A stretch of DNA of 64,000 bases from Escherichia phage HY02: the sequence record KM092515, one strand, 5' to 3'. Below, piece by piece: positions 26-54,299 of the stretch (its first letter is position 1; each line of letters begins with the position of its first letter). A program made the position numbers and the translations under genes. The notes under the pieces were generated by a model, which saw only the letters and a program-made list of their open reading frames with translations, ran no database searches and was not told where the DNA came from.

Positions 26-2392
26 ATGCGCATGGTAAATGACCACGCAGAAGTGATTAAGAGTTCAACTTCTTTAGAGACGTCTCAAGCACAGATTACA
101 ATGACACCTGAGATGTTCAGCCTTTTGAGTTCTGGTGTATATACCTTTAAAGAAAGGGCAGTGATTCGTGAACTGTCATGTAACGCAGTAGATGCTCAGA
201 AAGAAGCTGGAAAAGAGAACATCCCGTTCCATGTGCATTTACCTACTCGTTTTGAGCCTTACTTTGAAGTTCGTGATTTTGGAACTGGATTGACTCATGA
301 TAAAGTTATGAGTTTGTATCTAAACTACGGGGCTTCTACGAAGAATGACTCTAATGACTACATTGGTGCAATGGGTATCGGCTCAAAATCCCCATTTGCA
401 ATTGCTCAGTCATTCACAGTGTCTAGCTATGTTGACGGTGTTGTTAATAAGTACTCTGTTTATCTTGAGAATGGCATCCCTCAAGTAACTAAGCTGACAA
501 CTAACCCAACAAAAGAACCTAATGGTTTAGCTGTACGTGTGGCAGTTGCTGACCACCGTATCTCAAAGTTCTTTGAAGAAGCTGGGAATGTGTACTCATA
601 CTTCACTGTAAAACCAGAAAGTAATATTGAGTACGACGATGTATTAGCAGATATGAACGTCATTGCCCGTGAAGAAGGTGTTTATGATGCCATGATTCAT
701 AAGCAAAGCTGGCGTTCTAGTGGTAACAGGACAGAGTTTAATGTGGTGATGGGTAACATTGCCTACCCTGTTAATATGGAAGCATTACTTGGCGATGATT
801 TCTTCAAAGTATTGCCAGAATTTTTCCGTAGGAGCGTAGACCTTGTAAACATCTACATGCCTATTGGTTCAGTTGCTATTGCAGCTTCTCGTGAAGCATT
901 GCAGATGAATGACACGACAAAAAATGTTATCATTGAGGCTACTAAAAAGATAACTGAAGCCATTACAAAGGATGTTATCAAGAAAGTTAATAGCCAACCT
1001 ACACTCATGGATGCTGCACAGGCTTATGCTGAGTTACGTTTGAACTCACGAGAGATGTTTAATGCTGTGTGTCCAAAGCTAGAGTGGGGAGGCGTTAAGC
1101 TTGATTCTCTGGAAGAAGAATTGCTAAACATTCGTCGTGGGATTATCTACGCAGAAGACGGCTCAGTCATTTATGAACGTGACGGTAAAGGCAATATTAA
1201 GGTTGATAGGAACGGGAACAATATCCCTAAAGTAGATTATCTTTATAACCCAGTTGCTTATGTCAAGTTCAACTCTTTAGAGAGTAAGATTCGTGCAACA
1301 GCACTTTCCTACACTCAAGAGGCAAGTATGTTCAATATCTTTGGCGCAATGCGTAAAAGCCAAATTGAACAGTTTTTGTTCGTGATTAATGACCGTCGCA
1401 ATAAAAATGGTACTGAGAAGACTGTAGGCCGCAATCAGATTCTGCGTGGTGCATGTCGAGACTACGCCAGTGAGTCAAGTCTGTTTCACAGATATAATGG
1501 TATTGTGTTTGTATTCTCGACTGAAAAAGAGTTAGATGATTTAATCAATCTACACAAACTTGATAAAAGCTTGTTAAAGATTGTGAAGATGTCTGATAAG
1601 GAACATCACTATCAGCGTAAAGAAGCTGTAAGAGGTGTTGTAAAACTCTGGAAAGCTGTTCCAGCAGAAGGTGTAGCTTCCTATAAAGAGGTTTCAGAGG
1701 ACTTTGATACAATTGAAGAACCTCAGCTTTACATTAAGGCAGTTGGTGACACAGTTGATGGCGAATGTTTTTGCTCATCTCCAGAAGATGTGGCTAAGTC
1801 AGTTGCTAATGTTATAGGGAAGACAGTCTATGTTTTCCGAAAAGCAAATTGGAAAAAGATACCAGAAGACTGGATTGAAGTAGATGAGAAGCTCTTGAAC
1901 GACAGCTTAACTGATGTTCATTGGATTAATCATAACAGGTATATGACACGCATCTACATGAATGGTGTTCTTGACCTTACAAGTAGTTGGATTATTGCCA
2001 GAAACTTTACATTCAATAACAGGAAGATTTCTCGTGGCTATTGCTATTCACGAGATACTAGCAAAACTATCTTCCTAGAAGGTAATGAAGAGGCTGTAGA
2101 GGCTATGTTCGGTAAAATCCAGTATGTTGCTGCACCGTTTGCATACACTTACACTATTAGTAGATTGCAAACTTTGAAAGACTGCCTTGACAATGATACA
2201 AAGCTGTACAAGAAAATTAAGAAAGCTGGTGACCGCATGGTCATTAAGGTGACAAACTACCTTTCAAAAAGAAAACAAGAAAACTTCTTGCTTTCTCATT
2301 TAGATTGGAATAAAGTGTCACCCATCGAAGTGAGTAAGTTCTTAGGCTTTGATGTGAAGTGTGTTCCAGAAGGAACTACAGTTTACGATTAA
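26..2392 (+). CDS. rIIA: rIIA-like protein with N-terminal GHKL (Bergerat) ATPase motifs
   Basis: 788-aa ORF; N-box-like IRELSCNAVDA, G1-like DFGTG and G2-like GAMGIG near the N-terminus, as in the HATPase domain of phage rIIA; first gene of the + strand early block. Confidence 0.5.
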   Translation: MRMVNDHAEVIKSSTSLETSQAQITMTPEMFSLLSSGVYTFKERAVIRELSCNAVDAQKEAGKENIPFHVHLPTRFEPYFEVRDFGTGLTHDKVMSLYLNYGASTKNDSNDYIGAMGIGSKSPFAIAQSFTVSSYVDGVVNKYSVYLENGIPQVTKLTTNPTKEPNGLAVRVAVADHRISKFFEEAGNVYSYFTVKPESNIEYDDVLADMNVIAREEGVYDAMIHKQSWRSSGNRTEFNVVMGNIAYPVNMEALLGDDFFKVLPEFFRRSVDLVNIYMPIGSVAIAASREALQMNDTTKNVIIEATKKITEAITKDVIKKVNSQPTLMDAAQAYAELRLNSREMFNAVCPKLEWGGVKLDSLEEELLNIRRGIIYAEDGSVIYERDGKGNIKVDRNGNNIPKVDYLYNPVAYVKFNSLESKIRATALSYTQEASMFNIFGAMRKSQIEQFLFVINDRRNKNGTEKTVGRNQILRGACRDYASESSLFHRYNGIVFVFSTEKELDDLINLHKLDKSLLKIVKMSDKEHHYQRKEAVRGVVKLWKAVPAEGVASYKEVSEDFDTIEEPQLYIKAVGDTVDGECFCSSPEDVAKSVANVIGKTVYVFRKANWKKIPEDWIEVDEKLLNDSLTDVHWINHNRYMTRIYMNGVLDLTSSWIIARNFTFNNRKISRGYCYSRDTSKTIFLEGNEEAVEAMFGKIQYVAAPFAYTYTISRLQTLKDCLDNDTKLYKKIKKAGDRMVIKVTNYLSKRKQENFLLSHLDWNKVSPIEVSKFLGFDVKCVPEGTTVYD

Positions 2393-2471
2393 AGTGTTTG
2401 ACAAGGGGCTTCAAAGCCCCTTAGAATAGCCTTACAAAATGATTTATTAACTAACAAGAGAGAGTAATAAG

Positions 2472-3581
2472 ATGACTACTAAAACTAAAGCACAGATTGA
2501 CGCAGAAATTTACAAACTGGTTAAAGAAGGTAAGCTGACTAAAACAGCTATTGCACAGAAATTTAATACTTCAACCCGTTCAGTTGGTCGTGCTGTAGAG
2601 CGTCATGAAGCAACCTTAAAAGGGAATAAGAAGGCGACTTCTACACCAGCTACGAAAACTTTGAAGCAAGTTGCTAAGACCTTTAAGAAGAAAGCTGGCA
2701 AACCAGTTGAAAAGGCTGTTAAAGAGTCTGTACAGAAAGCTCCGGTGAATAAACTGCATGAAGCTATGCAGAAAGATGACAAGATTGAGTACATGATTAC
2801 TGGTGATTCTGTAATTATGACTTATGGTTCAGAATCTGAAATTGTTGAGTCTACTCATCCGAACTATCAAGAGATTGTAGTTCATGTTGTGAAAGGTGAG
2901 TTCAAGAAAGCATTTGAACTGATGAACATTCGTAAGTCTATCGAAAACTTCACTCAGGGTGCTATCACAATCAAAGGCGACAAGCTATTCTACGGTGCTG
3001 TTGAGATGCGTTCTACTCTGGTTGACCGTATTCTTCACATGATGAAAACTGGCGATAAAGGTTTTGAACGACTTGTAATGTTCTTCGAAAAACTGATGGA
3101 AAACCCATCTAAAGATTCTGTAGAACAACTTTGGGGATTTGTATCTCACCTTGATGTTGAAATTGATGAGGAAGGCTACATCATTGGTTGGAAGAAAGTC
3201 TCTACTTGTGAAGGTAAGCTGGTTGACTCCCACACCTACAAAGTTCCTAACGATTTGGGTAACATTGTAGAGATGCCACGTTGGATGGTTGATAATAACC
3301 GTAACGTGACTTGCTCTCAAGGTCTTCATGTTGGTGCTTGGGATTATGTTCGCAGCTTCTCAGGTGATACAATCCTGAAAGTTCGTGTCCACCCACGAGA
3401 TGTTGTATCTGTTCCAACTGATTACAACGATATGAAGATGCGTTCCTCTCGTTATGAAGTTGCAGCAATCGTTGATAATCAACGTAAAGTGCTGGAAGCA
3501 TGGGACGGTAAGACTGAAGCTTTGCATGTCATCGTTGGCACTGCTGGTGAACTTATCTCTCAACGTAAACGTGAAATCTAA
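2472..3581 (+). CDS. hypothetical protein (possible rIIB-like partner, by position only)
   Basis: 369-aa ORF directly downstream of the rIIA-like gene with RBS-like AAGAGAG upstream; no motif recognised. Confidence 0.3.
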   Translation: MTTKTKAQIDAEIYKLVKEGKLTKTAIAQKFNTSTRSVGRAVERHEATLKGNKKATSTPATKTLKQVAKTFKKKAGKPVEKAVKESVQKAPVNKLHEAMQKDDKIEYMITGDSVIMTYGSESEIVESTHPNYQEIVVHVVKGEFKKAFELMNIRKSIENFTQGAITIKGDKLFYGAVEMRSTLVDRILHMMKTGDKGFERLVMFFEKLMENPSKDSVEQLWGFVSHLDVEIDEEGYIIGWKKVSTCEGKLVDSHTYKVPNDLGNIVEMPRWMVDNNRNVTCSQGLHVGAWDYVRSFSGDTILKVRVHPRDVVSVPTDYNDMKMRSSRYEVAAIVDNQRKVLEAWDGKTEALHVIVGTAGELISQRKREI

Positions 3582-3597
3582 TAAGTAATTTCTTAAA

Positions 3598-3621
3598 AGG
3601 CTGCTTCGGCGGCCTTTTTTA
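3598..3621 (+). terminator. intrinsic terminator
   Basis: GC hairpin GGCTGC-TTCG-GCGGCC followed by TTTTTT. Confidence 0.6.
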
Positions 3622-3622
3622 T

Positions 3623-3650
3623 TTGTATTTTGTGCAGAGTGCTGTATAAT
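3623..3650 (+). promoter_or_regulatory. sigma70-like promoter
   Basis: TTGTAT, 16-bp spacer, TATAAT upstream of the SLT gene. Confidence 0.4.
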
Positions 3651-3681
3651 TGTTGTCACGATAAACTAAACAGGAGAACCA

Positions 3682-4230
3682 ATGAAGAAATTGATTCTAG
3701 GTTTGTGCTTAATGTTTACAGCACACTTATCTTATGCAGTTGACTGCCCAGAGCTATCAATTAGCCAAAAAGTGAACATGTTAAAAGCTTACCAGTATGG
3801 TGAGAATAACATGGGTAAAGGTTGGGGTATCACTCTAGCAGCTATAGCCTTACAAGAGTCAGAGTTAGGTCTGAAGGTAGAAAATAAAAAGACCCATGAC
3901 TACGGTATCTTCCAGAATCACTTGAAGACTGTTGTAAAGCGTAACAAAATTAGTCCTAATGTTGCTAAAAAGAAACTCTTAAAAGATTTTGACTATGCCG
4001 CAAAAGAAACACATAAAGAGCTTGAGTTTTGGACGAAGGTACATGGTCACCCAAAGTCAAAGAAGACTTTACAAAAAGTTTTAGCATCATATAATGCTGG
4101 GTATTCGTACAGAATCCCTAAAGCTAAGAAATACTCTCAAGATGTCTATAACAATATGAAAGTTATTGCTCAATGTGAATTTGCAACAAACATTTCTAAG
4201 GTAAACCATGAAAAAATTAAGAAAGTCTGA
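3682..4230 (+). CDS. secreted lytic transglycosylase (SLT domain)
   Basis: N-terminal signal peptide MKKLILGLCLMFTAHLSYA; SLT-like motifs QESELG (catalytic Glu-Ser), DYGIFQ and YNAGYSY. Confidence 0.55.
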   Translation: MKKLILGLCLMFTAHLSYAVDCPELSISQKVNMLKAYQYGENNMGKGWGITLAAIALQESELGLKVENKKTHDYGIFQNHLKTVVKRNKISPNVAKKKLLKDFDYAAKETHKELEFWTKVHGHPKSKKTLQKVLASYNAGYSYRIPKAKKYSQDVYNNMKVIAQCEFATNISKVNHEKIKKV

Positions 4231-4903
4231 TGAAGTCCTGTGTCATGCTTATGACTTACATCCTCATGAGTTAGGTCTTGATTCCTGTGTATGGACTCCA
4301 GAACAGTGCAGGGATTTTGAAGACACTGCAAGAGAAGTTGTATGTTCACTTGAAGAGTTCCACACATCAGAACCAATTGTGAACGTTGTGGACAAAGAGA
4401 CTGGACAAACTATAGGTGTAAGGCGTGATAGTTTAGTCATAGTCAATAAAGACCTTGTAGAAAAAGGTAACCTCATCTTAGCAGATATTGATGGCGTTCT
4501 TACAAATTTTAATCACGAAGATTGCTCAACGGAATTGACTGATGGGTCATTCTCACAGTACACTAATCTTCTTGACTCTGTAAGAGCAAAACCAACATAT
4601 GTTTTTAGTATTATTGATGCAATTGCTAATCATGCTGCCATTGGACTCTTGACAGCGAGAGGTGAATCTCAGAGAATACCTACTGAGATGTTTTTAAGGC
4701 ATAACATAGAGCATGATTACATGCTTTTTATGCGTGGTTTTGGAACTAACTCTATAAGTGCAGAAAGTTTAAAAGTGAGGATGATTCAGTCTTGCATTCT
4801 TCCTTATTTTAATATAGTATGCTTTATAGAAGATACAGAGAAGAATGTTCAGAAGGTAAACAGAATCCTTCCACACATTAAAACCATGTTAGTTAAACAT
4901 TGA
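4208..4903 (+). CDS. HAD-superfamily phosphatase-like protein
   Basis: motif I ADIDGVLTNF (DxDG[VT]L), motif II-like LLTARG and a downstream acidic ED; start uncertain because it overlaps the upstream gene. Confidence 0.4.
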   Translation: MKKLRKSDEVLCHAYDLHPHELGLDSCVWTPEQCRDFEDTAREVVCSLEEFHTSEPIVNVVDKETGQTIGVRRDSLVIVNKDLVEKGNLILADIDGVLTNFNHEDCSTELTDGSFSQYTNLLDSVRAKPTYVFSIIDAIANHAAIGLLTARGESQRIPTEMFLRHNIEHDYMLFMRGFGTNSISAESLKVRMIQSCILPYFNIVCFIEDTEKNVQKVNRILPHIKTMLVKH

Positions 4904-5379
4904 GAGAAGAACTTATGAACAATATCATTACGGTAGCACTGGACGATACGGCAAACAAATCTGAAGTAGTTCGTAAAATGATTCAAGGTAACTTTGAAGG
5001 TAAAATTTTCCGTGCTGTTAATGTAAAAGCTGATGGCAGCATTCGTGAATATCGTGCATTGTTGAATGTTAAGAAGCACGTAAAAGGTGCTGGTTCAACG
5101 ACTGCACACAAAGAAAACCTGATGACTATCTATGATATGGGTAAGGCTTCAGAGTTAGGTGCTGAGGGTATCGTTAAAGAAGGTGCTCCGTATCGCTCTT
5201 TCAATCTGGAAACTACTCTTATGCTTTCCTTTACAAGTGGCTCTAAAACAATCACTTATCTCTTTACTGATGCTGCAACGGTATCTGCTATTAAGGATAG
5301 CACTATCAAAGCTGGCGTAGTTGCTGCTGCAAAAGCCTCTTCGATGGCTGCGAATATCCTTGCTAAAGTCCTCGGTTAA
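4900..5379 (+). CDS. hypothetical protein
   Basis: 159-aa ORF ending just before an intrinsic terminator. Confidence 0.5.
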   Translation: MREELMNNIITVALDDTANKSEVVRKMIQGNFEGKIFRAVNVKADGSIREYRALLNVKKHVKGAGSTTAHKENLMTIYDMGKASELGAEGIVKEGAPYRSFNLETTLMLSFTSGSKTITYLFTDAATVSAIKDSTIKAGVVAAAKASSMAANILAKVLG

Positions 5380-5389
5380 GGTTAAGATA

Positions 5390-5414
5390 CAGGCTCCTTC
5401 GGGAGCCTTTTTCA
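5390..5414 (+). terminator. intrinsic terminator
   Basis: AGGCTCC-TTCG-GGAGCCT hairpin followed by TTTTTC. Confidence 0.7.
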
Positions 5415-5431
5415 TTTCAGGAGATTTCTAA

Positions 5432-5779
5432 ATGACATTTAAAGAGTTCTGTCAAGCCACTTTCATAATTGTTTTCTTAGTTGGGGCGGGTGTCTGGGGA
5501 GGATACTCTTACAGAGACTACCAAGTTGCTGAAGCTGAGTTAAGCAATGAGAAGCTAATAAGTGTTGCTAAAGATGCTTATCAGGAAGGATTAGTTACAC
5601 TGAGCACCAATTACAAAAATGATTTGAAAGATGTGCTTGCTAAGAATAAGCACACAAAAGAGGTACTAACATATGAAAAAACTAAGCCAGAGTTTTATAA
5701 TGTTTGTGTTACTGATAATTATGTCAGGGTGTTCAACGAACAAAGTGAGCAGTACATTCAAAAACTCCCAAGTAAGTGA
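5432..5779 (+). CDS. membrane protein, i-spanin-like (N-terminal TM helix, periplasmic helical domain)
   Basis: hydrophobic segment FIIVFLVGAGVWGGYSY then charged helical region; a lipoprotein ORF overlaps its 3' end in another frame. Confidence 0.4.
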   Translation: MTFKEFCQATFIIVFLVGAGVWGGYSYRDYQVAEAELSNEKLISVAKDAYQEGLVTLSTNYKNDLKDVLAKNKHTKEVLTYEKTKPEFYNVCVTDNYVRVFNEQSEQYIQKLPSK

Positions 5780-5942
5780 GAGTGATAAGTACACTCAAGA
5801 AGAATCACGGTATATCATCAAAGGCAACACAGGCAGTGATGTAGCAGCAGCACTTGAGTTCTACCGTGACGGCTTTTACCAGTGTACAATTAAAGCTAAT
5901 AACCTTATTGACATGATTTTATTAGGGAATAAGCAGCAATGA
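5673..5942 (+). CDS. putative lipoprotein, o-spanin-like
   Basis: signal peptide with lipobox IIMSGC; starts inside 5432..5779 in a different frame. Confidence 0.4.
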   Translation: MKKLSQSFIMFVLLIIMSGCSTNKVSSTFKNSQVSESDKYTQEESRYIIKGNTGSDVAAALEFYRDGFYQCTIKANNLIDMILLGNKQQ

Positions 5943-6208
5943 CAGAGAATCAAGACACTTTCTATGTAGAAGGTTACTTACTGTTACCACGACCAAAAGA
6001 AACTTATATGCGAATTGACTTCTTGCCAACCATTATGGATAATGTGATGTGTCATATCTTTATGCAAGGTGTCACAGCACAGCTTAAGCATGTTGGTAAA
6101 GAGTGCAAAATAAAGGTTGACACTCATCCAGAAATCAAAGAGAATCACTACACATGGTTCTTACCAGATTCTAAAGAAATCTTAGCAGTTCTTAAAACGA
6201 GGAAATGA
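5939..6208 (+). CDS. hypothetical protein
   Basis: 89-aa ORF, start overlaps upstream stop. Confidence 0.45.
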   Translation: MTENQDTFYVEGYLLLPRPKETYMRIDFLPTIMDNVMCHIFMQGVTAQLKHVGKECKIKVDTHPEIKENHYTWFLPDSKEILAVLKTRK

Positions 6209-6519
6209 TTATGCAATTCCAGCCAACAAATCGTGGATTTTCTTATGCAGAATTTAAAGATGCTAAAGGGGAAATTTGTACTTTACAAGAAAGTTCATCA
6301 TACGAACCATGTATCTGGTTAGGTGCTAAAGAGGTCTCTGTTCAGTACCTAGATAATGGCTGGAAAACACTTGATATACCAGCATTAGTTGGTAAAGATT
6401 TTGTAGGTAATCAAAGAATGAAGCTCAATCAAGAACAGGTAAAAGAGTTGTTGCCGTACCTCCAATACTTTGCTGAAAATGGTGAATTACCAACAGAGGA
6501 ACTTACAAATGCAGATTAA
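6205..6519 (+). CDS. hypothetical protein
   Basis: 104-aa ORF, start overlaps upstream stop. Confidence 0.45.
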   Translation: MIMQFQPTNRGFSYAEFKDAKGEICTLQESSSYEPCIWLGAKEVSVQYLDNGWKTLDIPALVGKDFVGNQRMKLNQEQVKELLPYLQYFAENGELPTEELTNAD

Positions 6520-6835
6520 TGGAAGAGACTTTGTAGCCGTTTACTACGAGAAAGGTAAAGAAGTTGGTGTAGCACAAGTATCTTATGGCAATGGTAAGTG
6601 GCTATATGGAACAATCGCAGTAGTAGGGACAAGAAGTGATACAAAAACTTTTAAAGATTGTGTTGACCTTCTTGAAGAATCCATCCAGAATCATTGGTGT
6701 CTGATATGGATGACTGATAACGAAGTGATGGAGCGTTTCAAAAAGATTGATATCAACATTGACAGTATCGAGCATGTTGATTTATATGAGCTAACTGAGA
6801 AGGTAAACTATGAAAGTAATACTAGCCAGAGATAA
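6509..6835 (+). CDS. hypothetical protein
   Basis: ORF track start is 6470; internal ATG at 6509 abuts the upstream stop and is the more likely start. Confidence 0.4.
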   Translation: MQINGRDFVAVYYEKGKEVGVAQVSYGNGKWLYGTIAVVGTRSDTKTFKDCVDLLEESIQNHWCLIWMTDNEVMERFKKIDINIDSIEHVDLYELTEKVNYESNTSQR

Positions 6836-7043
6836 AAAGACCCGTAAAATTGTAAGTTCAGCAGTATTCATAGGGAGAGATGAAGTCATCCCGTTTGCAG
6901 GAGAAGATGTGTTAACTTACAAGAAGGTGATGAAACGTGAGTTCAGTAACCGTTTCCGTGACTTCTTCTCTGAACCATTGGAAGACTTTAAAAGTCGTTG
7001 TGGTAAAGGCATCATCATTCAAGAGGCAATTATTCATGGCTGA
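6810..7043 (+). CDS. hypothetical protein
   Basis: 77-aa ORF in a chain of coupled small genes. Confidence 0.4.
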   Translation: MKVILARDKKTRKIVSSAVFIGRDEVIPFAGEDVLTYKKVMKREFSNRFRDFFSEPLEDFKSRCGKGIIIQEAIIHG

Positions 7044-7236
7044 CTTCTGCAAAGACTGTTCTATCGAAATGTTCGGACGTGATACAGGTGACTTAAAAGG
7101 TCTTATCACTGAAGATGACTTTAAAGCTGGCTATGCAATGCCAGTAATCTGTGAAGGTTGTGGGTGCATCTGGGTAGACCACGAAGGACAGCGTGTAAAA
7201 CCTTCAGAAGATAAAGAATCTTGGGAGAGATGTTAA
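7037..7236 (+). CDS. small Cys-rich protein (possible zinc-binding)
   Basis: MADFCKDCSIE...ICEGCGC; ORF track start 6937 overlaps the previous gene, ATG at 7037 preferred. Confidence 0.4.
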
Positions 7237-8022
7237 ATGGGTATTGTAAAAATCATCAATGGTGATATCTTTGCTGCATTTGATAAAGGTAAGTTTGACA
7301 TCATTGGTCATGGTTGTAACTGCATGAACCTAATGGGTGCAGGTATCGCTGACAAGATTTCTAAACTTTACCCAAAAGCATATGAGACCGATACAGAAGT
7401 TTATCTCTATGCAGGTGGTATAGGCCACAAACCCTGTGAGAATTTACTAGGTAATTTCTCTGTAGCACGTTTAAAACAAGGTCGTATAGCTAACCTTTAC
7501 ACTCAGCTTAAGACTGGTAAAGATGCCCGATACAGTGCTTTAGAGTCATCTTTGAAACAGCTTAACAGATACTGTGAAGTTAACCAGTTGAAGAAGGTTG
7601 GTCTACCTATGATTGGTGCAGGTATCGGTGGACTTGACCCTCAAGCTGTCACAGTTATCATCAATCAGGTGATGAAGAGTGTAGATGTTTATCTGTATGT
7701 CTATGAAGGCGAGATGTACCACAAGTTACGCTCAGGTTGGAAGAACTACTGTGAACCAGAATACTTTGCAGGTGTAGCAGTGTTCACGGATAACGCAGTT
7801 ACCCTCTTCAGACGAAGAAAAGGTAAGATACATCAAAGTAACCCTCCGGTTGAAAAGATGTCTCTAGGTAATGCTCTAGTTACCCACCTGTCGAAGAGCA
7901 ATCACAGAATGGCTGTGACATTTGGTAGTGATGCAGAAGCTTATATCTATGCAAGAACTGATGAGGATATCGAGGCAATCTTCTCTTCACCAGAAGTTAC
8001 CTTCTTAGACGCAAAGAACTAA
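7237..8022 (+). CDS. macro-domain (ADP-ribose binding/processing) protein
   Basis: N-terminal GDIF...DIIGHGCNCMNLMGAGIADKI and GLPMIGAGIGG loops resemble macro-domain glycine-rich motifs; C-terminal about 110 aa of unknown fold. Confidence 0.55.
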   Translation: MGIVKIINGDIFAAFDKGKFDIIGHGCNCMNLMGAGIADKISKLYPKAYETDTEVYLYAGGIGHKPCENLLGNFSVARLKQGRIANLYTQLKTGKDARYSALESSLKQLNRYCEVNQLKKVGLPMIGAGIGGLDPQAVTVIINQVMKSVDVYLYVYEGEMYHKLRSGWKNYCEPEYFAGVAVFTDNAVTLFRRRKGKIHQSNPPVEKMSLGNALVTHLSKSNHRMAVTFGSDAEAYIYARTDEDIEAIFSSPEVTFLDAKN

Positions 8023-17230: not shown

Positions 17231-17764
17231 CTATAATTGTAGGTTGCATTCTTTACTTACCTCTTCCAGTTTAACCTCAGAATCCTTAAGACGTTTCTTA
17301 TGAACTCTGAATCTCATTAGTGCGATGATGATACCAACTAAAGGAACAGCATACAAGTACCAAACATCATATACCTTTGCATTAATCTGTGTAATGGTTA
17401 AGTCTTGAGCTATGGAACTGATTGCTGATACTGCCAGTAATGTTGCTAGGAAAAATGCCAGTACCATAACAATACTTAAACAACCTCTGGCATGGTGTTC
17501 ATGCTTAATGCACTTATTCTTTTCGTCAACAACCCTGTTGTAGTCATTTGTAAAGTCTCTGTAGAAAGCTTTCAAGTATTCTTGACTGTAGCCTTCAAAG
17601 CAACCTGTACCGTACCAATAATCACCACCAAAATGTGCTATAATACCGGTATCTCCATTTGGTTTGGTTACTCTCAAAGAAGTATGATGACGAGTATCCT
17701 GATAATCTATTTTATATCTTTCTTCGTAAATCATTTTCCAACCCCTCTCAATCGTTTGTTCCAC
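17231..17764 (-). CDS. hypothetical membrane protein
   Basis: two hydrophobic segments (LSIVMVLAFFLATLLAVSAI, VPLVGIIIALM). Confidence 0.5.
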   Translation of the reverse strand: MEQTIERGWKMIYEERYKIDYQDTRHHTSLRVTKPNGDTGIIAHFGGDYWYGTGCFEGYSQEYLKAFYRDFTNDYNRVVDEKNKCIKHEHHARGCLSIVMVLAFFLATLLAVSAISSIAQDLTITQINAKVYDVWYLYAVPLVGIIIALMRFRVHKKRLKDSEVKLEEVSKECNLQL

Positions 17765-20081: not shown

Positions 20082-20546
20082 TTACTTTGGGTATACACTG
20101 TCAAGATAAATGTCAGCTTCCATTCTACGTCTGTTTTTCAGACCGTTTGAAGTGACCTTCTTACCTTTGACTGTAACCTTGTTCCACCACTGCATAGCTT
20201 CTGCACAACCCACCTTATTACCAGCATTGTGGCGCTTGATAAATGTAGAATCCTGCATAGCTGTGATACCGATGTTGTATGTTTCACTTACAAGTGCATC
20301 GAACTCATTCTGAGAAGTTGGAACCTTGATAGCTTTGTTCACTGCTGCAACAAACTTCTCAACATCTGCAAGAAGATACTGTTCAGCTTGTTCAGCAGTA
20401 ATTTTCATACCCATCTTAACAGGTTTTCCGTCAATACGGATTGTACCATACCCGATTGTCGGGATTCCGGCAGAGTCTTCGTAAGCCTCTAACTTCAGAC
20501 CTTCAAAGAACTTAATAGCTTCTAAACCTTTTCTTGAGAGTTGCAT
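20082..20546 (-). CDS. endolysin, T4-type lysozyme (GH24)
   Basis: N-terminal EGLKLEAYEDSAGIPTIGYG matches the T4 lysozyme catalytic-region pattern. Confidence 0.8.
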   Translation of the reverse strand: MQLSRKGLEAIKFFEGLKLEAYEDSAGIPTIGYGTIRIDGKPVKMGMKITAEQAEQYLLADVEKFVAAVNKAIKVPTSQNEFDALVSETYNIGITAMQDSTFIKRHNAGNKVGCAEAMQWWNKVTVKGKKVTSNGLKNRRRMEADIYLDSVYPK

Positions 20547-36306: not shown

Positions 36307-37413
36307 ATGTTGACTAATTCTGAAAAAAGCAGATTTTTCCTTGCTGACCTGACTGGTGAAGTCCAGTCTATCCCAAATACTTATGGGTATATTTCCAACT
36401 TAGGTCTGTTCCGTTCAGCACCAATCACCCAAACTACTTTCCTGATGGACTTAACTGATTGGGATGTTAGCTTGCTTGATGCGGTAGACCGTGATAGCCG
36501 TAAAGCAGAGACTAGCGCACCTGAACGTGTTCGTCAAATCAGCTTCCCAATGATGTACTTCAAAGAAGTTGAAAGCATTACTCCTGATGAGATTCAGGGT
36601 GTACGTCAGCCAGGCACTGCAAATGAACTGACTACTGAAGCTGTAGTACGTGCTAAGAAGCTGATGAAGATTCGTACCAAGTTCGATATTACTCGTGAGT
36701 TCCTGTTTATGCAAGCTCTGAAGGGTAAAGTTGTTGATGCTCGTGGTACTCTGTATGCTGACCTGTACAAGCAGTTCGACGTTGAGAAGAAGACTATTTA
36801 CTTCGACCTTGACAATCCTAATGCTGACATTGACGCTGCTATTGAAGAACTGCGTATGCACATGGAAGACGAAGCTAAGACTGGCACTGTAATCAACGGT
36901 GAAGAAATTCACGTAGTTGTTGACCGCTTATTCTTCAGCAAACTGGTTAAACATCCTAAGATTCGTGATGCTTATCTTGCACAGCAGACTCCGCTGGCTT
37001 GGCAACAGATTACTGGTTCTCTGAGAACTGGTGGCACTGACGGCGTTCAGGCTCATATGAACACCTTCTACTACGGTGGTGTTAAGTTTGTCCAGTACAA
37101 CGGTAAGTTCAAAGACAAGCGTGGTAAGGTTCACACTCTGGTGAGCATTGATAATGTAGCAGCAACTGTTGGTGTTGGTCATGCCTTCCCTAACGTATCT
37201 ATGCTGGGTGAAGCTAACAACATCTTCGAAGTGGCATATGGTCCATGTCCTAAGATGGGTTATGCAAATACACTTGGTCAGGAACTGTACGTATTCGAAT
37301 ACGAAAAAGACCGTGACGAAGGTATTGACTTCGAAGCTCACTCTTACATGCTGCCATACTGCACACGTCCTCAGTTGCTGGTAGACGTTCGTTCTGACGC
37401 TAAATCAAACTAA
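36307..37413 (+). CDS. major capsid protein
   Basis: 368-aa ORF after protease/scaffold with strong RBS and codon usage suggesting high expression; assigned by gene order. Confidence 0.6.
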   Translation: MLTNSEKSRFFLADLTGEVQSIPNTYGYISNLGLFRSAPITQTTFLMDLTDWDVSLLDAVDRDSRKAETSAPERVRQISFPMMYFKEVESITPDEIQGVRQPGTANELTTEAVVRAKKLMKIRTKFDITREFLFMQALKGKVVDARGTLYADLYKQFDVEKKTIYFDLDNPNADIDAAIEELRMHMEDEAKTGTVINGEEIHVVVDRLFFSKLVKHPKIRDAYLAQQTPLAWQQITGSLRTGGTDGVQAHMNTFYYGGVKFVQYNGKFKDKRGKVHTLVSIDNVAATVGVGHAFPNVSMLGEANNIFEVAYGPCPKMGYANTLGQELYVFEYEKDRDEGIDFEAHSYMLPYCTRPQLLVDVRSDAKSN

Positions 37414-37434
37414 TATTCTTAAGGAGGGTTATGA

Positions 37435-37884
37435 ATGTGCTATACAGGCGACCCAGCCAATAACCCTCTTGATAGAGTAAGAATCCTCTGCACAGACACT
37501 AATAATGATGAAATTCTTATTGAGCAGTCTGTGCTAGAGTGGTTCTATCTAGAATCTGGAAAGGATGAAAAGAAAGCAGCCATCAAAGCTCTTAAATATT
37601 TACTCTTTCAAGTAGCCAAGATGGGAGATGAGAAGGTTGGTGGTGTTTATTTACGTAACTCTTCCAGATTCAAATCTCTGAAAGCTGTTTATGACGACCT
37701 TGTTAAAAGCTCTGTTTCAGGACTACCCTATGCAGGTGGTATTAATCAGTGCGACATTGATATGCGTCGTCAGAATCCTTGCTCTGTCAAGAAATACACA
37801 GAATATGGTGATGCTGCCAGATACGAAGGCAGAGATTACTGCAACCGTGTTAATGGCGTATTTATTATCGAGCGAGATGAATAA
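37435..37884 (+). CDS. head-tail joining or completion protein (by position)
   Basis: 149-aa ORF with RBS AAGGAGGG. Confidence 0.4.
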   Translation: MCYTGDPANNPLDRVRILCTDTNNDEILIEQSVLEWFYLESGKDEKKAAIKALKYLLFQVAKMGDEKVGGVYLRNSSRFKSLKAVYDDLVKSSVSGLPYAGGINQCDIDMRRQNPCSVKKYTEYGDAARYEGRDYCNRVNGVFIIERDE

Positions 37885-38366
37885 TGGTTAAAAGGGTTAT
37901 TCACCCCGCTAGAGCAAAATTAGTCGGGGCTATGAAGAACTTGCAAACGGCTAATGCTCAAGTTGGGTATTTTCAAGAACAAGGTCAACATAGCTCTGGT
38001 TTTTCTTATCCTGCTTTAATGTATTTACAAGAAGTTATTGGGGTTCCTTCAGCTTCTGGTAAAGTATATCGTAGGTTGTTTGAAATCACTATGATGCTAA
38101 ACAAACAGACCTTGTTAGAGCAGACTAAGAAGAATCTATATAAGCAACTTAGCAGTCTCGACGTAGACCCTTCAAATACCTTAGAAGCATTTGCAAAGAA
38201 TGCTCAAAAGGCAATTAAAAGAGGTTTTGGTAATTCTGCTATCCTCCCTCCTAACGCACCTTCCACAGTCAAGAAAAAAGGCTTTAACGCACCTCTTGTT
38301 GAGACAGGTGACTTAAGGGATAACCTTGCTTATAAAATTTCTACTAAGAAGGGTATTAAAAAATGA
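37884..38366 (+). CDS. head-tail joining or completion protein (by position)
   Basis: 160-aa ORF, coupled. Confidence 0.4.
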   Translation: MVKRVIHPARAKLVGAMKNLQTANAQVGYFQEQGQHSSGFSYPALMYLQEVIGVPSASGKVYRRLFEITMMLNKQTLLEQTKKNLYKQLSSLDVDPSNTLEAFAKNAQKAIKRGFGNSAILPPNAPSTVKKKGFNAPLVETGDLRDNLAYKISTKKGIKK

Positions 38367-38764
38367 GGCTCTTAAACAGACACAGCTTTGTAGTAAAGCG
38401 TAAAGTCTCTGAAGACGGTTATTATAATGATGATGGTGATTGGGTAGCTTCACAAGATATTGTTGAGGTTAACTGTAAAGGCAATATCCAACCATATATC
38501 AAAGGTTCTGTAAAGAACGGTACGCAGATTGCTTTACCGGAAGGTATTAGGCTGACCGATACAAGAATCCTGTATACTACATATAAACTTAGAACTTCAG
38601 ATGATGTAGAGTGGAATGAGTCTGATATTGTTATGATTGATGGTCATGAGTATGAAGTATTTATGACTATGGATTGGTCACAGCAATTAGCTCATACATC
38701 CCATTATGAATATATCATTATTAGAAGGGATAAAATGAATGCAGTTAGAAACAGCAGAACTTGA
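38363..38764 (+). CDS. head-tail joining or completion protein (by position)
   Basis: 133-aa ORF, coupled. Confidence 0.4.
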   Translation: MRLLNRHSFVVKRKVSEDGYYNDDGDWVASQDIVEVNCKGNIQPYIKGSVKNGTQIALPEGIRLTDTRILYTTYKLRTSDDVEWNESDIVMIDGHEYEVFMTMDWSQQLAHTSHYEYIIIRRDKMNAVRNSRT

Positions 38765-39338
38765 AAAAGGTCTAGTTAGAACCTTAGTGGATGTTATTGG
38801 TCACAGATTAGCTCGTGATAAAAATAATAGACCAAACGTAATTAGAGCTTACCCTTCTGATAACTCAAATGACAAAGGTTTAAAACCTGACCAGCCATTT
38901 ATTACCGTATATTGTCAAGACGCTGCAACACCTTATGGTTGGGTTCTTGATAAATTTGTTGAGGACGATGTAGTTTGCTACAGAATTGCTTTTCAGATTC
39001 CAGTGTTAATTACGGTGAATGGTAAAGGTGCTCACAGTATTATGCTTGAGCTTAAACAACGATTAGAGATGAGTTCAGTCAGAGATTTAATCCTTGAAGA
39101 AACAGGGGCTACAGTACTAGACACTGGAGCAATCCCGAATGACTACACTTATCTCAATACAGATTTCGAAAATTCTGCACCTCTTGTTGTAACTCTTGTA
39201 AAAAACTCAGTCCTGAAAGATGAACGTGGAAGTATTATTGAGCGTGTCATTGTTGATGGTGAGTTAGTTTATGAAGAAGGACAAGAGCCACCAGAATATA
39301 TTATCCATCTAGATGTAGACTCCAAAGGGGTAAAATAA
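38739..39338 (+). CDS. tail completion protein (by position)
   Basis: 199-aa ORF immediately before the sheath gene. Confidence 0.4.
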   Translation: MQLETAELEKGLVRTLVDVIGHRLARDKNNRPNVIRAYPSDNSNDKGLKPDQPFITVYCQDAATPYGWVLDKFVEDDVVCYRIAFQIPVLITVNGKGAHSIMLELKQRLEMSSVRDLILEETGATVLDTGAIPNDYTYLNTDFENSAPLVVTLVKNSVLKDERGSIIERVIVDGELVYEEGQEPPEYIIHLDVDSKGVK

Positions 39339-40691: not shown

Positions 40692-40706
40692 TAGAGGTAA
40701 ATTGGA

Positions 40707-41153
40707 ATGGCTATGTATCAGCAATATTCCCCTAAAGACGTTGTATGTAGCTGGAATGGTATTGCCATTGAAGGCTTTGCCCCAGACTCATTTTTACGTC
40801 TACAGAGAACATCACCACTTGTGACACCAGTTGTTGGGGCAGGTGGTCAAGTTGCTCTGACAAGAAATGCAGATAAGACAGGTACTATTGAGATTGAGCT
40901 TATGCAGACTTCTCTCTCTAACCAGATGCTTTCTGCAATTCAAGCTAAACAAGACAATATGGAACTTGAAGAAGATATCTCTTCTAACTTCGTAATCTAC
41001 GACCCATCAGGCTCTGTTCTGGCAACTGGTATTAATGCTTGGTTGCAGGAATTACCACAGATTGAACTTGGTCGTGACCAGAACTCTAAAACTTGGATTT
41101 TTGGTTGTGAGAAGCTAGACTACACTTCAACAATTCCAGCGTCAAGTGTTTAA
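40707..41153 (+). CDS. tail tube protein
   Basis: 148-aa ORF after the sheath gene, followed by a strong terminator. Confidence 0.55.
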   Translation: MAMYQQYSPKDVVCSWNGIAIEGFAPDSFLRLQRTSPLVTPVVGAGGQVALTRNADKTGTIEIELMQTSLSNQMLSAIQAKQDNMELEEDISSNFVIYDPSGSVLATGINAWLQELPQIELGRDQNSKTWIFGCEKLDYTSTIPASSV

Positions 41154-41165
41154 TAAATCCTATAA

Positions 41166-41198
41166 GGGGGAGACTTTAAAAGGTCTTCCCCTTTTTTG
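41166..41198 (+). terminator. intrinsic terminator after sheath and tube genes
   Basis: GGGGGAGAC-loop-GTCTTCCCC followed by TTTTTTG. Confidence 0.75.
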
Positions 41199-41226
41199 TT
41201 TCTTTTAAAAGTATTAAGGAATCACA

Positions 41227-41625: not shown

Positions 41626-41627
41626 AC

Positions 41628-41866: not shown

Positions 41867-41867
<1 letters not shown>
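41628..41867 (+). CDS. tail assembly chaperone (second)
   Basis: 79-aa ORF between chaperone and tape measure. Confidence 0.45.
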
Positions 41868-47257
<5,390 letters not shown>

Positions 47258-53733: not shown

Positions 53734-53931
53734 ATGCCTACAATCCTAGCAATTCTTCTAAAAAATCTAGGTAGCTTCTTCTGGAAACTCATTTTATCCC
53801 TTCTAAGTGAATACATGATTGAGAAAGTGTTCTTTAAGCTTGCAAGATATCTTGCGAGTAAGACAGACACACCTATTGATGATGAGTTCGTAGATAACTT
53901 AGAAAAAGCTTTTAAGGGGGAGAATAAATGA
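53734..53931 (+). CDS. small membrane protein (holin-like candidate)
   Basis: 65-aa ORF with N-terminal hydrophobic helix and charged C-terminus. Confidence 0.4.
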   Translation: MPTILAILLKNLGSFFWKLILSLLSEYMIEKVFFKLARYLASKTDTPIDDEFVDNLEKAFKGENK

Positions 53932-54299
53932 AGTGGCTAGAGGAAGCTTTTAAAAATAATATTGGTGCAATTGTAGTTGGTATTTTTAGTGTTATTGGGA
54001 TGTATACCACCATGCAAGTTTCGGATGGTAAGCAAGAGGTGTCTATCACAACAAAATTACAGCAGCTAGATAATTACAGTAAATCTAATTACTCAGCTAT
54101 TCGTGATTTACAGTCTGACATGAGATTGCTTCAGTTAGGGATGGAGAACCAGAAAGTTCAGTTAGAGAATGTTAAGGGTGAGAACGCAAAACTTACTAAA
54201 ACTCTTGATAAATTCTCTGACAGTGTGAACAATCTGGCTCAATCAGTATCAGCCTTGCAAGCTATTACTGAAAAGAACACAAAGAATACTGAAAAATAA
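53928..54299 (+). CDS. membrane-anchored coiled-coil protein (spanin or holin-regulator candidate)
   Basis: TM helix IGAIVVGIFSVIGMY followed by heptad-rich domain. Confidence 0.4.
   Translation: MKWLEEAFKNNIGAIVVGIFSVIGMYTTMQVSDGKQEVSITTKLQQLDNYSKSNYSAIRDLQSDMRLLQLGMENQKVQLENVKGENAKLTKTLDKFSDSVNNLAQSVSALQAITEKNTKNTEK

What the first reader, a model, noticed from the sequence alone, without database searches (positions are those of the whole stretch)
3682..5942. Secreted SLT transglycosylase and overlapping TM-protein/lipoprotein pair (spanin-like), far from the GH24 endolysin
ORF 3682-4230 has a cleavable signal peptide and SLT motifs. About 1.2 kb downstream, ORF 5432-5779 (N-terminal TM helix plus helical domain) is overlapped out of frame by ORF 5673-5942 with lipobox IIMSGC, the classic overlapped i-spanin/o-spanin layout. 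The only clear endolysin (20082-20546) is on the opposite strand 14 kb away, so the phage may carry two murein hydrolases or a dispersed lysis system.
Basis: partly seen in the sequence, partly recalled or inferred. Interest (0 to 1): 0.5.

Follow-up and report, generated by a model that had tools for sequence, protein, structure and literature searches.

The report
Felix O1-type spanin pair plus exported transglycosylase
This stretch of a Felix O1-like phage genome holds a real overlapping pair of outer-membrane-disrupting lysis genes (spanins) and, separately, a secreted cell-wall-cutting enzyme related to phage T4's Vs.1; both were already annotated in near-identical phages, so the finding is correct but ordinary.

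Summary
The window is a Felixounavirus, 95-98% identical to many sequenced phages. ORF 5432-5779 (N-terminal membrane helix) and ORF 5673-5942 (+1 frame, 107-nt overlap, signal MKKLSQSFIMFVLLIIMSG|C) form an overlapped two-component spanin. The pair keeps its membrane helix, lipobox, Shine-Dalgarno site and one periplasmic Cys each across five Ounavirinae lineages and a Kuravirus. The lipoprotein frame is under purifying selection (pN/pS 0.03-0.15), and synonymous change is suppressed in both frames of the overlap. It is the only lipoprotein-signal ORF in the window. Felix O1's pair is already listed as overlapped spanins (Kongari 2018), and identical proteins are annotated in GenBank.

Its closeness to the spanins is not conserved in T4. 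Scattered lysis genes (spanins 5.4 kb, endolysin 20 kb, putative holin 54 kb) are a published trait of Felix O1-like and T4-like phages. Novelty: already known.

The parts
3595..3618 (+). Intrinsic terminator after rIIB. It separates rIIB from the SLT-pnk-hyp gene group.
   Evidence: Terminator scan: 10-bp stem, 5 G-C pairs, T-run; sequence read.
3645..3650 (+). TATAAT box 31 nt upstream of the SLT start. There is no canonical -35, so a promoter here is not established.
   Evidence: Read directly from the sequence. The sigma-70 scan did not flag it.
3672..3676 (+). Shine-Dalgarno AGGAG, 5 nt before the SLT start codon.
   Evidence: Sequence.
3682..4230 (+). Vs.1-family exported GH23 (SLT-type) lytic transglycosylase, 182 aa. 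The signal peptide is aa 1-19 (nt 3682-3738). The catalytic Glu59 codon is at 3856-3858. Cys22 and Cys165 probably form a disulfide.
5391..5408 (+). Intrinsic terminator immediately upstream of the spanin pair.
   Evidence: sequence.
5419..5423 (+). Shine-Dalgarno AGGAG, 8 nt before the i-spanin start.
   Evidence: Sequence.
5432..5779 (+). i-spanin, 115 aa. It has one N-terminal TMD (about aa 8-25), a periplasmic domain, a single periplasmic Cys92 and the conserved C-terminal motif N-x-C...Y-x-R-x-FNE.
   Evidence: (phrog_1152 E=1e-41). Annotated as i-spanin in relatives.
5658..5663 (+). Shine-Dalgarno AAGAGG for the o-spanin, embedded in i-spanin coding sequence 9 nt before the ATG. A GAGG/GGAG element is conserved at this place in all lineages.
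   Evidence: Sequence; upstream sequences of relatives.
5673..5942 (+). o-spanin, 89-aa precursor. The SPase II signal is aa 1-19, and the lipobox M-S-G-C uses codons 5721-5732 with Cys20 at 5730-5732. Ser at +2 directs it to the outer membrane. The mature protein is 70 aa with a single further Cys71.
   Evidence: Annotated as o-spanin with this same start in Maleficent and JLBYU32. 100% identical to the annotated o-spanin of ESCO49.
5673..5779 (+). 107-nt dual-coding overlap. The i-spanin C-terminus is read in frame 0 and the o-spanin signal peptide and lipobox in frame +1.
   Evidence: pS in the overlap is 0.08-0.29, against 0.56-0.81 in flanking single-coding DNA for the same phage pairs.
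20082..20546 (-). Canonical soluble GH24 endolysin with no signal or SAR sequence. Given as context: it is the murein-degrading step of the lysis pathway.
   Evidence: PF00959 E=6.6e-41; phrog_7 endolysin E=4e-58.
53928..54299 (+). Putative holin, 123 aa, with one N-terminal TMD and a helical C-terminal domain. It is the last gene of the late tail-fibre operon. Identity is by annotation in a relative only.
   Evidence: Position-equivalent to the 'putative holin' Pr103Blw_00076; ORF; PHROG function unknown.

Best explanation
The interval holds two independent, already-recognised elements of a Felix O1-like myophage.

(1) Genes 5432-5779 and 5673-5942 encode an overlapped two-component spanin.
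- The i-spanin inserts in the inner membrane by its N-terminal helix, with its C-terminal domain in the periplasm.
- The o-spanin is exported by Sec, lipidated at Cys20, cleaved by signal peptidase II and sorted by Lol to the inner leaflet of the outer membrane (Ser at +2).
- The two periplasmic domains bind through their conserved C-terminal parts and span the periplasm through the murein mesh. Their single conserved cysteines probably form intermolecular disulfides.
- Once the holin (probably 53928-54299) has released the cytoplasmic GH24 endolysin (20082-20546) and the murein is degraded, the complexes are free to bring the inner and outer membranes together. This destroys the outer membrane as the last step of lysis.

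(2) Gene 3682-4230 is the Felix O1 orthologue of T4 Vs.1.
- It is a small single-domain GH23 lytic transglycosylase, exported by Sec independently of the holin and cleaved after Ala19. In this lineage it is probably stabilised by a Cys22-Cys165 disulfide.
- It would cleave MurNAc-GlcNAc bonds of host murein in the periplasm from mid-infection.
- It most likely acts as an accessory murein-remodelling or murein-weakening enzyme, not as the lysis endolysin.

Shown here: gene structure, dual coding, conservation, family, fold and signal features. Inferred: localisation, enzymatic activity, disulfides, membrane fusion and physiological role.

The two elements are neighbours only in Ounavirinae and are not a cassette.
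For: Spanin pair:
- phrog_1152 'Rz-like spanin' E=1e-41 for the TM protein; weaker Rz-like hit phrog_456 for the lipoprotein.
- TMD, lipobox and Ser at +2 computed directly.
- It is the only lipoprotein-signal ORF in the window, with 0 in 20 shuffles.
- The +1-frame pair keeps a 107-137 nt overlap, a conserved SD, 'C-S-T' after the lipobox and exactly one invariant periplasmic Cys per protein. This holds in Felixounavirus, Mooglevirus, Suspvirus, Kolesnikvirus and Pectobacterium phage Arno18, and in Kuravirus NJ01.
- tblastn finds the full 89 aa in 311 phage records.
- pN/pS is 0.03-0.15 in the o-spanin-only part, and pS is depressed in both frames of the overlap.
- Relatives annotate the pair as i-/o-spanin.
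- Felix01/FO1a/UAB_Phi87 are listed among overlapped spanins in PMC6139136.
- ORF6 (i-spanin) peaks at 25 min, together with the lysin ORF35, in Felix O1 RT-PCR (PMC3185647).

SLT/Vs.1 protein:
- BLASTP to T4 Vs.1 gives 32% identity, E=2e-16; phrog_600 E=1e-57.
- The catalytic motifs are invariant.
- 14 of 15 family members hit Pfam SLT. The best solved relative by profile is EtgA, E=7e-4.
- The signal peptide with a small-x-small site is conserved in every lineage examined.
- Cys22 and Cys165 are present together or absent together.
- 2,139 phage records hold a match and no plasmid does. Apparent bacterial hits are phage contigs.
- Gp3 is absent from the Felix O1 virion proteome, and ORF3 peaks at 25 min.

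Dispersed layout: and PMC4319497.
Against: - No experiment on either element exists for this phage group in the literature I could search.
- The pair shows no sequence similarity to the tested spanins of T4.
- The mature o-spanin has no proline, unlike lambda Rz1.
- The i-spanin AF2 model is low confidence, pLDDT 51, so its coiled-coil character is unverified.
- No promoter is evident between the terminator at 5391-5408 and the i-spanin start, so how and when the pair is transcribed is unclear. ORF7 (o-spanin) is not in the RT-PCR table.
- For the SLT protein, the single-sequence Pfam score is below the gathering threshold.
- A constitutively exported active murein enzyme would be expected to be harmful unless weak or regulated. 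Nothing here shows how that is handled.
- Holin identity is only an annotation in a relative.
Confidence: 0.85

Rival explanations
1. The SLT/Vs.1 protein is a true second endolysin. It would be a Sec-exported, holin-independent murein hydrolase needed for, or rate-limiting in, host lysis, in the manner of secreted or SAR endolysins. Under this reading the phage has a dual-endolysin lysis system.
For: It has an exported GH23 fold with an intact catalytic centre. In Felix O1 it peaks at 25 min, like the lysin and i-spanin. Some relatives annotate it 'putative lysin'. Nolan et al. 2006 suggested 'some role in cell lysis'.
Against: In every lineage it coexists with a canonical cytoplasmic endolysin (T4 e, Felix gp35). 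Its signal has a cleavage site and a short hydrophobic core, so it is not a SAR anchor. It is not linked to a holin or endolysin gene in any genome examined. From general knowledge, T4 e mutants do not lyse although vs.1 is present, so Vs.1 cannot replace the endolysin; I did not check this in a paper here.
Confidence: 0.12
2. The SLT/Vs.1 protein is a 'space-making' specialised lytic transglycosylase, analogous to EtgA, VirB1 or IpgF. It would open local gaps in murein for a phage purpose other than bulk lysis. Examples would be threading of spanin complexes, envelope changes linked to rII or lysis inhibition, or interference with superinfecting phage.
Confidence: 0.15
3. The 89-aa lipoprotein is not a spanin component but a host-surface-modifying or superinfection-exclusion lipoprotein, like T5 Llp or the Cor proteins. 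Under this reading the upstream TM protein is functionally unrelated.
For: The mature lipoprotein has no proline-rich region and no similarity to tested o-spanins. Its best PHROG (phrog_4180) has 'unknown function'.
Against: It is always paired and frame-overlapped with the same TM protein family, even in an unrelated podophage. The TM partner hits an Rz-like spanin PHROG at 1e-41. Each protein has one invariant periplasmic Cys, as is typical for spanins. There is no other spanin candidate in the 64 kb examined. The spanin curators list it as a spanin.
Confidence: 0.04
4. The 5673-5942 ORF is a chance out-of-frame ORF and is not translated.
For: Many gene callers omit or truncate it (SUSP2, Rouille and Arno18 have no CDS; others start at Met17). 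The AT-rich window contains many spurious ORFs of 40-110 aa.
Against: pN/pS is 0.03-0.15 in its own frame outside the overlap. The start, SD, signal peptide and lipobox are conserved down to 28-33% identity. The lipoprotein signal is unique in the window and absent from shuffles.
Confidence: 0.01

Closest known systems
Felix O1 ORF6/ORF7 (Felix01p014/p015) and their Ounavirinae orthologues, listed as 'overlapped' two-component spanins in SpaninDB (Kongari et al. 2018, PMC6139136)
   Same: They are the same genes. The proteins are 97-100% identical, with the same 107-nt +1 overlap, lipobox and cysteines. Identical or near-identical proteins are annotated i-spanin/o-spanin in fjerdesal, ESCO49, Maleficent and JLBYU32.
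   Different: Nothing of substance differs. The one point is that many database entries start the o-spanin at an internal Met (73 or 68 aa) and so lose the signal peptide; the 89-aa form is the one supported here.
Lambda Rz/Rz1, the paradigm two-component spanin
   Same: Both pair a type II inner-membrane protein with a small outer-membrane lipoprotein, encoded in different frames of shared DNA. Both have periplasmic cysteines, and both are presumed to act as the last step of lysis (general knowledge).
   Different: The architecture is overlapped, not fully embedded. No sequence similarity was seen. The mature o-spanin is 70 aa with no proline, whereas Rz1 is 40 aa with a penta-proline stretch. 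There is one periplasmic Cys in the i-spanin, not two.
T4 PseT.3/PseT.2 spanins
   Same: In both phages the spanin genes lie far from the holin and endolysin, in an early/middle region close to a pseT (polynucleotide kinase/phosphatase) gene. Both o-spanins are relatively large and not proline-rich.
   Different: The T4 genes are separated, not overlapped. There is no detectable sequence similarity beyond the lipoprotein signal. The cysteine pattern differs: T4 has 0 in the i-spanin and 2 in the o-spanin, while here it is 1 and 1.
T4 Vs.1 ('20.7 kDa protein in vs-regB intergenic region'; phrog_600)
   Same: It is an orthologous family: 32% identity over the full length at E=2e-16, the same length (181 against 182 aa), the same signal peptide and the same catalytic motifs. 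The SLT likeness of vs.1 was reported by Nolan et al. 2006, and Felix O1 ORF3 was annotated by this homology.
   Different: The Felix-type proteins carry the Cys22/Cys165 pair that Tevenvirinae proteins lack. The genomic neighbours also differ: rIIB and pnk here, regB and vs in T4.
EtgA, VirB1 and IpgF-type specialised lytic transglycosylases of secretion systems, and housekeeping family-1 LTs (Slt70, MltC, MltE, MltF)
   Same: They share the GH23 fold, the Glu-Ser catalytic motif, the G-x-x-Q and A/S-Y-N-x-G motifs, and, for EtgA-type enzymes, the small size and Sec export.
   Different: Sequence identity is only 13-19%. The family is found in phages only, with no secretion-system context and no plasmid homologues. 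It has no lipobox or accessory domains, unlike the Mlt enzymes.

Membership tests
Two-component spanin (i-spanin + o-spanin) | The i-spanin is an inner-membrane protein with a single N-terminal TMD and a periplasmic C-terminal domain. | tested here: met
   There is one hydrophobic segment, aa 6-24 (KD 1.75), and none elsewhere. It is conserved in all relatives.
Two-component spanin (i-spanin + o-spanin) | The o-spanin is a small protein with an SPase II signal and lipobox Cys, and no Asp at +2, so it sorts to the outer membrane. | tested here: met
   The signal is MKKLSQSFIMFVLLIIMSG|CST. 'C-S-T' is conserved in all lineages. The signal is unique in the window, with 0 in 20 shuffles.
Two-component spanin (i-spanin + o-spanin) | The two genes are adjacent in embedded, overlapped or separated architecture, with the o-spanin in the +1 frame when DNA is shared. 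| tested here: met
   The overlap is 107 nt in frame +1 and 107-137 nt in relatives. Dual-coding constraint is shown.
Two-component spanin (i-spanin + o-spanin) | At least one periplasmic cysteine is available for intermolecular disulfide bonds. Kongari et al. found this in 507 of 528 systems. | tested here: met
   i-spanin Cys92 and o-spanin Cys71 are both invariant across lineages. Bond formation itself cannot be tested here.
Two-component spanin (i-spanin + o-spanin) | The periplasmic domain of the i-spanin is helical or coiled-coil. | tested here: inconclusive
   The AF2 model is all-helical after the TMD, but its mean pLDDT is 51.
Two-component spanin (i-spanin + o-spanin) | Sequence membership of a family annotated as spanin. 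| tested here: met
   i-spanin: phrog_1152 'Rz-like spanin', E=1e-41. o-spanin: phrog_4180 (unknown function), E=7e-51, and a weak phrog_456 'Rz-like spanin' hit, E=2.5e-4.
Two-component spanin (i-spanin + o-spanin) | Function: required for outer-membrane disruption, shown by complementing lambda Rz-am Rz1-am and by knock-outs arresting as spherical cells. | not testable with these tools
   No experimental report for this spanin family was found.
Lambda Rz1-type o-spanin (sequence family) | A proline-rich region in a roughly 40-aa mature lipoprotein. | tested here: not met
   The mature protein is 70 aa with 0 Pro. It works like an o-spanin but is not an Rz1 homologue.
T4 PseT.3/PseT.2 spanin sequence families | Detectable sequence homology. 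| tested here: not met
   BLASTP gives E=27 for the i-spanin pair. For the o-spanins, only the signal peptide aligns, at E=0.043.
GH23 / family-1 lytic transglycosylase (Pfam SLT, PF01464) | Pfam gathering score. | tested here: inconclusive
   This sequence scores 19.2 bits against a cut-off of 21.3. 14 of 15 family members match, with a best E of 8e-12.
GH23 / family-1 lytic transglycosylase (Pfam SLT, PF01464) | A catalytic Glu followed by Ser, plus the G-x-x-Q, A/S-Y-N-x-G and downstream Tyr motifs. I recalled the motif definition from Blackburn & Clarke 2001 and did not re-read it. | tested here: met
   E59-S60, G75-I-F-Q78, S136-Y-N-A-G140 and Y151. E59, Q78, Y137, N138, G140 and Y151 are invariant in both alignments.
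GH23 / family-1 lytic transglycosylase (Pfam SLT, PF01464) | The goose-lysozyme/SLT fold. | tested here: met
GH23 / family-1 lytic transglycosylase (Pfam SLT, PF01464) | Non-hydrolytic cleavage that yields 1,6-anhydro-MurNAc products. | not testable with these tools
   This needs enzyme assays. GH23 also contains true lysozymes, so the chemistry is inferred from motifs only.
T4 Vs.1 family (phrog_600) | Full-length homology to T4 Vs.1, with an N-terminal Sec signal peptide. | tested here: met
   E=2e-16 with 32% identity; phrog_600 E=1e-57. The signal peptide is conserved across Ounavirinae, Straboviridae, Ackermannviridae and others.
Canonical or SAR endolysin | Either cytoplasmic and holin-dependent, or carrying an uncleaved weakly hydrophobic SAR anchor; usually adjacent to a holin gene. 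| tested here: not met
   The protein has a short hydrophobic core and an S-x-A cleavage site. No holin is adjacent. A separate GH24 endolysin is present.
Secretion-system specialised lytic transglycosylases (EtgA, VirB1, IpgF) | Encoded within a T3SS, T4SS or conjugation locus and acting with that machine. | tested here: not met
   All homologues are on phage genomes and there is no plasmid match. The resemblance is in fold, size and export only.

The most novel reading that the evidence does not exclude
The Vs.1 family comprises small exported GH23 enzymes found in about 2,100 phage records (T4-like, Vi1-like, Felix O1-like, KVP40-like and a chimallin-encoding jumbo phage), always alongside a normal endolysin. 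The most novel reading left open is that the family is not a lysis enzyme at all. It would instead be a holin-independent periplasmic murein-remodelling factor with a distinct role. Possible roles are opening the murein mesh so that spanin complexes or other envelope-spanning phage structures can assemble, or changing the wall to affect superinfection or lysis inhibition.
Probability: 0.2. Interest if true: 0.55.

Novelty: already known. Interest (0 to 1): 0.2.

Why it matters
For this window it matters little. The genes are the known Felix O1 spanins and the known Vs.1 homologue, in a phage 95-98% identical to many sequenced isolates.

Two practical points do follow:
- Most public records and protein clusters hold a truncated o-spanin (73 or 68 aa, without a signal peptide) or none at all. 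Automated surveys of lysis genes in Felixounavirus therapy and biocontrol candidates will therefore under-call spanins.
- The Vs.1 family is one of the most widespread conserved phage proteins with a clear predicted activity and predicted periplasmic location but no known role. A simple knock-out study in T4 or Felix O1 would fill that gap.

Tried and rejected
- Single-sequence search of the SLT protein against PDB sequences found nothing. The profile search and the fold searches were needed instead.
- NCBIfam gave only noise for the SLT and spanin proteins.
- PADLOC found no defence-system match for any of five proteins in the interval.
- Homology of the pair to the T4 spanins was tested and rejected. 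I had expected it from the shared pseT neighbourhood.
- Looking for plasmid or conjugation homologues of the SLT protein found none. The 'Campylobacter coli' homologue turned out to be on a chimallin-encoding phage contig.
- AF2 of the i-spanin gave an unusable model, pLDDT 51.
- Promoter search: no sigma-70-like site was flagged directly upstream of the SLT gene or the spanin pair. The T4 late-promoter motif TATAAATA is not enriched in the window (3 found against 3.9 expected) and is absent near these genes.
- The membrane protein at 17231-17764 was considered as a holin, but relatives annotate it only as 'membrane protein' and its PHROG has unknown function.
- Tail and baseplate proteins were screened for a third muralytic domain and none was found.
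- Four literature searches for functional work on Vs.1 found only the 2006 comparative-genomics remark.
- The Felix O1 supplement did not yield ORF-level data for ORF7.


Full report
**Identity of the window.** A megablast of 3000-7000 finds 274 phage records, 236 of them covering at least 80% of the query. The best are 95-98% identical Felixounavirus genomes such as vB_EcoM-Ro111lw, Pr103Blw and fjerdesal. The window is therefore a Felix O1-like myophage. The local gene order on the + strand is as follows:

| Feature | Coordinates |
|---|---|
| rIIA | 26-2392 |
| rIIB | 2472-3581 |
| terminator | 3595-3618 |
| SLT-like ORF | 3682-4230 |
| polynucleotide-kinase/phosphatase-like ORF | 4208-4903 |
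| hypothetical ORF | to 5379 |
| terminator | 5391-5408 |
| TM-protein ORF | 5432-5779 |
| lipoprotein ORF | 5673-5942 |
| several small ORFs | downstream of 5942 |
| Macro/Tk.4-like protein | 7237-8022 |

**Check of the observation.** All three ORFs are present as described.
- The SLT ORF begins MKKLILGLCLMFTAHLSYA|VD and is preceded by AGGAG.
- The TM ORF has a single hydrophobic segment at residues 6-24.
- The lipoprotein ORF is in the +1 frame and shares 107 nt with the TM ORF. It begins MKKLSQSFIMFVLLIIMSG|CST and is preceded by AAGAGG nine bases upstream.
- A rule-based scan of all six frames finds this as the only lipoprotein-signal ORF of at least 40 aa in the 64 kb. Twenty shuffles of the window gave none.
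- The GH24 endolysin at 20082-20546 on the minus strand is confirmed (PF00959, E=6.6e-41).

**The overlapping pair is a spanin.**
- Family matches: the TM protein matches PHROG 1152 'Rz-like spanin' at E=1e-41. The lipoprotein matches phrog_4180 (function unknown) strongly and an Rz-like spanin PHROG weakly.
- Distribution: tblastn finds the complete 89-aa protein in 311 phage records, down to 28-33% identity in Erwinia and Pectobacterium phages.
- Comparison across lineages: I extracted the pair from ten relatives in five Ounavirinae lineages. In every case the upstream protein has an N-terminal TMD and one periplasmic Cys in a conserved N-x-C...FNE motif. The downstream ORF is in the +1 frame and overlaps by 107-137 nt. 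It has a GAGG/GGAG Shine-Dalgarno, a basic n-region, a lipobox followed by C-S-T, and one further invariant Cys.
- Presence in a podophage: a homologous but unannotated pair exists in the unrelated Kuravirus NJ01.
- Codon-level test: Nei-Gojobori estimates against seven relatives give pN/pS of 0.03-0.15 for the part of the lipoprotein frame outside the overlap. Inside the overlap, synonymous divergence falls to 0.08-0.29 in either frame, compared with 0.56-0.81 in the flanking single-coding parts. That is the expected signature of dual coding.

**The spanin assignment is already known.**
- Relatives annotate the pair as i-spanin and o-spanin. One annotated o-spanin is 100% identical.
- The spanin census of Kongari et al. 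2018 lists Felix01, FO1a and UAB_Phi87, and also phiEa21-4, among overlapped two-component spanins (PMC6139136).
- Whichard et al. 2010 noted the absence of a holin-lysin cassette. Their RT-PCR table puts ORF3, ORF6 and the lysin ORF35 together in the class that peaks at 25 min. ORF7 is not listed (PMC3185647).
- The pair is not a sequence relative of the T4 spanins. It lacks the proline-rich region of lambda Rz1. It belongs to the functional class through its own family.
- My attempt to verify a coiled-coil periplasmic domain failed, because the AF2 model has pLDDT 51.

**The SLT-like ORF is the Felix O1 orthologue of T4 Vs.1.**
- Sequence evidence: the single-sequence Pfam score is just below threshold and phmmer against PDB sequences finds nothing. 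However, an alignment of 15 homologues shows invariant E59, Q78, Y137, N138, G140 and Y151, and nearly invariant S60 and G75. Fourteen of the 15 members hit Pfam SLT. The family profile finds EtgA and goose-type lysozymes in the PDB.
- Homology to Vs.1: BLASTP against T4 Vs.1 gives 32% identity over the full length, E=2e-16. The original Felix O1 annotation already recorded this homology. Nolan et al. 2006 reported the marginal SLT match of vs.1 orthologues and suggested 'some role in cell lysis' (PMC1524935).
- Distribution: tblastn finds a match in 2,139 phage records, mostly T4-like, Vi1-like and related large myophages, and in no plasmid. Two apparently non-phage homologues are on phage contigs. 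One sits beside a chimallin gene. The other lies in an rIIB-SLT-PNKP-Macro synteny block.

**Localisation of the SLT/Vs.1 protein.**
- An alignment across Ounavirinae, Tevenvirinae, Twarogvirinae, a KVP40-like phage, Ackermannviridae and Marfavirus shows the signal peptide in every lineage. Each has a basic n-region, a short hydrophobic core and a small-x-small cleavage site.
- Cys22 and Cys165 are either both present or both absent in every full-length member. That pattern suggests a disulfide, which fits a periplasmic protein.
- Gp3 is not among the Felix O1 virion proteins, so a role in cell-wall penetration at infection is unlikely.
- I found no functional study of Vs.1.

**Relation between the two elements and the rest of lysis.**
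- A terminator and two unrelated genes lie between the SLT gene and the spanins.
- In T4 the homologues are 73 kb apart: vs.1 at 62 kb and pseT.3/pseT.2 at 135 kb. The proximity seen here therefore carries no functional weight.
- The window shares a set of T4-type early/middle genes (rIIA, rIIB, vs.1, pseT-like, tk.4-like).
- Mapping the 'putative holin' of Pr103Blw onto the window gives 53928-54299, the last gene of the late tail-fibre operon. It has one N-terminal TMD, but its PHROG has unknown function, so this remains an annotation only.
- No muralytic domain was found in the tape measure or baseplate proteins tested.
- The lysis system is thus dispersed over at least three loci on both strands, as published for this genus and for T4.

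**Mechanism, with status of each step.**
- Shown: gene structures, dual coding, conservation, signal and lipobox features, the GH23 fold and its motifs.
- Inferred from established knowledge of spanins (Young laboratory work summarised in PMC6139136): Sec/Lol routing of the lipoprotein, the periplasm-spanning complex, disulfide-linked multimers, and membrane fusion after the endolysin has removed the murein.
- Inferred for the Vs.1-like enzyme: Sec export, cleavage after Ala19, lytic transglycosylase chemistry, and an accessory role, not the endolysin role.
- The main open point is what that accessory role is. The rivals are a second endolysin, a space-making enzyme of the EtgA type, or something else.

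**Verdict.** Everything in the interval has nevertheless been described or annotated before in essentially identical phages. I score the novelty as 'already known' and the interest as low. A modest residual interest attaches to the uncharacterised but very widespread Vs.1 family.

Noticed in passing
L006:3242-3761 (Escherichia phage NJ01, NC_018835, reverse complement of 36957-44196): This Kuravirus (phiEco32-like podophage) carries an unannotated overlapped spanin pair homologous to the Felix O1 pair. The i-spanin ORF is 3242-3616 and has the same C-terminal motif (YEKTKPVFYNVCASDDYVRMFNE). The o-spanin lies inside ORF 3402-3761, with a likely start at MRKLNQFFIMSALVMTMSA|C. RefSeq has only a truncated 'hypothetical protein' at 3588-3761. 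The same spanin family is therefore shared between myophages and podophages.
   Followed up: partly
window 5673-5942; L001:4222-4443, L002:4222-4443, L009:2673-2870; protein clusters P0045-P0058: The o-spanin is systematically mis-annotated. Many GenBank records and the largest protein clusters (for example P0045, 303 members) start it at an internal Met (73 or 68 aa), which removes the signal peptide. SUSP2, Rouille and Arno18 have no CDS for it at all.
   Followed up: yes
window 4208-4903: The 'polynucleotide kinase' ORF (231 aa) aligns to the T4-type Pnk PHROGs only through the C-terminal 3'-phosphatase (HAD) part: residues 84-219 against positions 158-282 of 295 in phrog_505. It may be a phosphatase-only protein with an unrelated N-terminal 85 residues, and not a kinase.
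   Followed up: no
window 53734-54299: Two small membrane proteins end the late tail-fibre operon. One is 65 aa with an N-terminal TMD (53734-53931). The other is 123 aa with one TMD and a long helical tail (53928-54299). The second is the position-equivalent of the 'putative holin' of Pr103Blw. Both PHROGs have unknown function. The pair could be a holin with an antiholin or partner.
   Followed up: partly
L014:8019-9953 (GCA_053226485.1 contig ACBEZJ010000004.1, labelled Campylobacter coli): A 214-kb contig in a bacterial genome assembly encodes a chimallin (phiKZ-type phage nucleus shell protein) next to a Vs.1-like SLT protein. The contig is probably a jumbo phage and not chromosomal DNA.
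   Followed up: no
GU169904.1 (Staphylococcus phage SA1) 138463-138987; MG065668.1 (Campylobacter phage A126) 41344-41610: Records named for Staphylococcus and Campylobacter phages contain Felix O1-like genes at 94-96% protein identity. They look like chimeric or contaminated assemblies.
   Followed up: no
L018:1372-2052 (Vibrio phage D482): The annotated start of the Vs.1 homologue lies about 42 codons upstream of the Met that yields the conserved signal peptide (MKRFLTLMLLLASTTATA). The start is probably mis-called.
   Followed up: no
window 26-8022: This block repeats a set of T4 early/middle genes that are scattered in T4: rIIA, rIIB, vs.1, a pseT-like gene and a tk.4-like Macro protein. 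As in T4, the spanin genes lie close to the pseT-like gene, although the spanins themselves are not homologous.
   Followed up: partly
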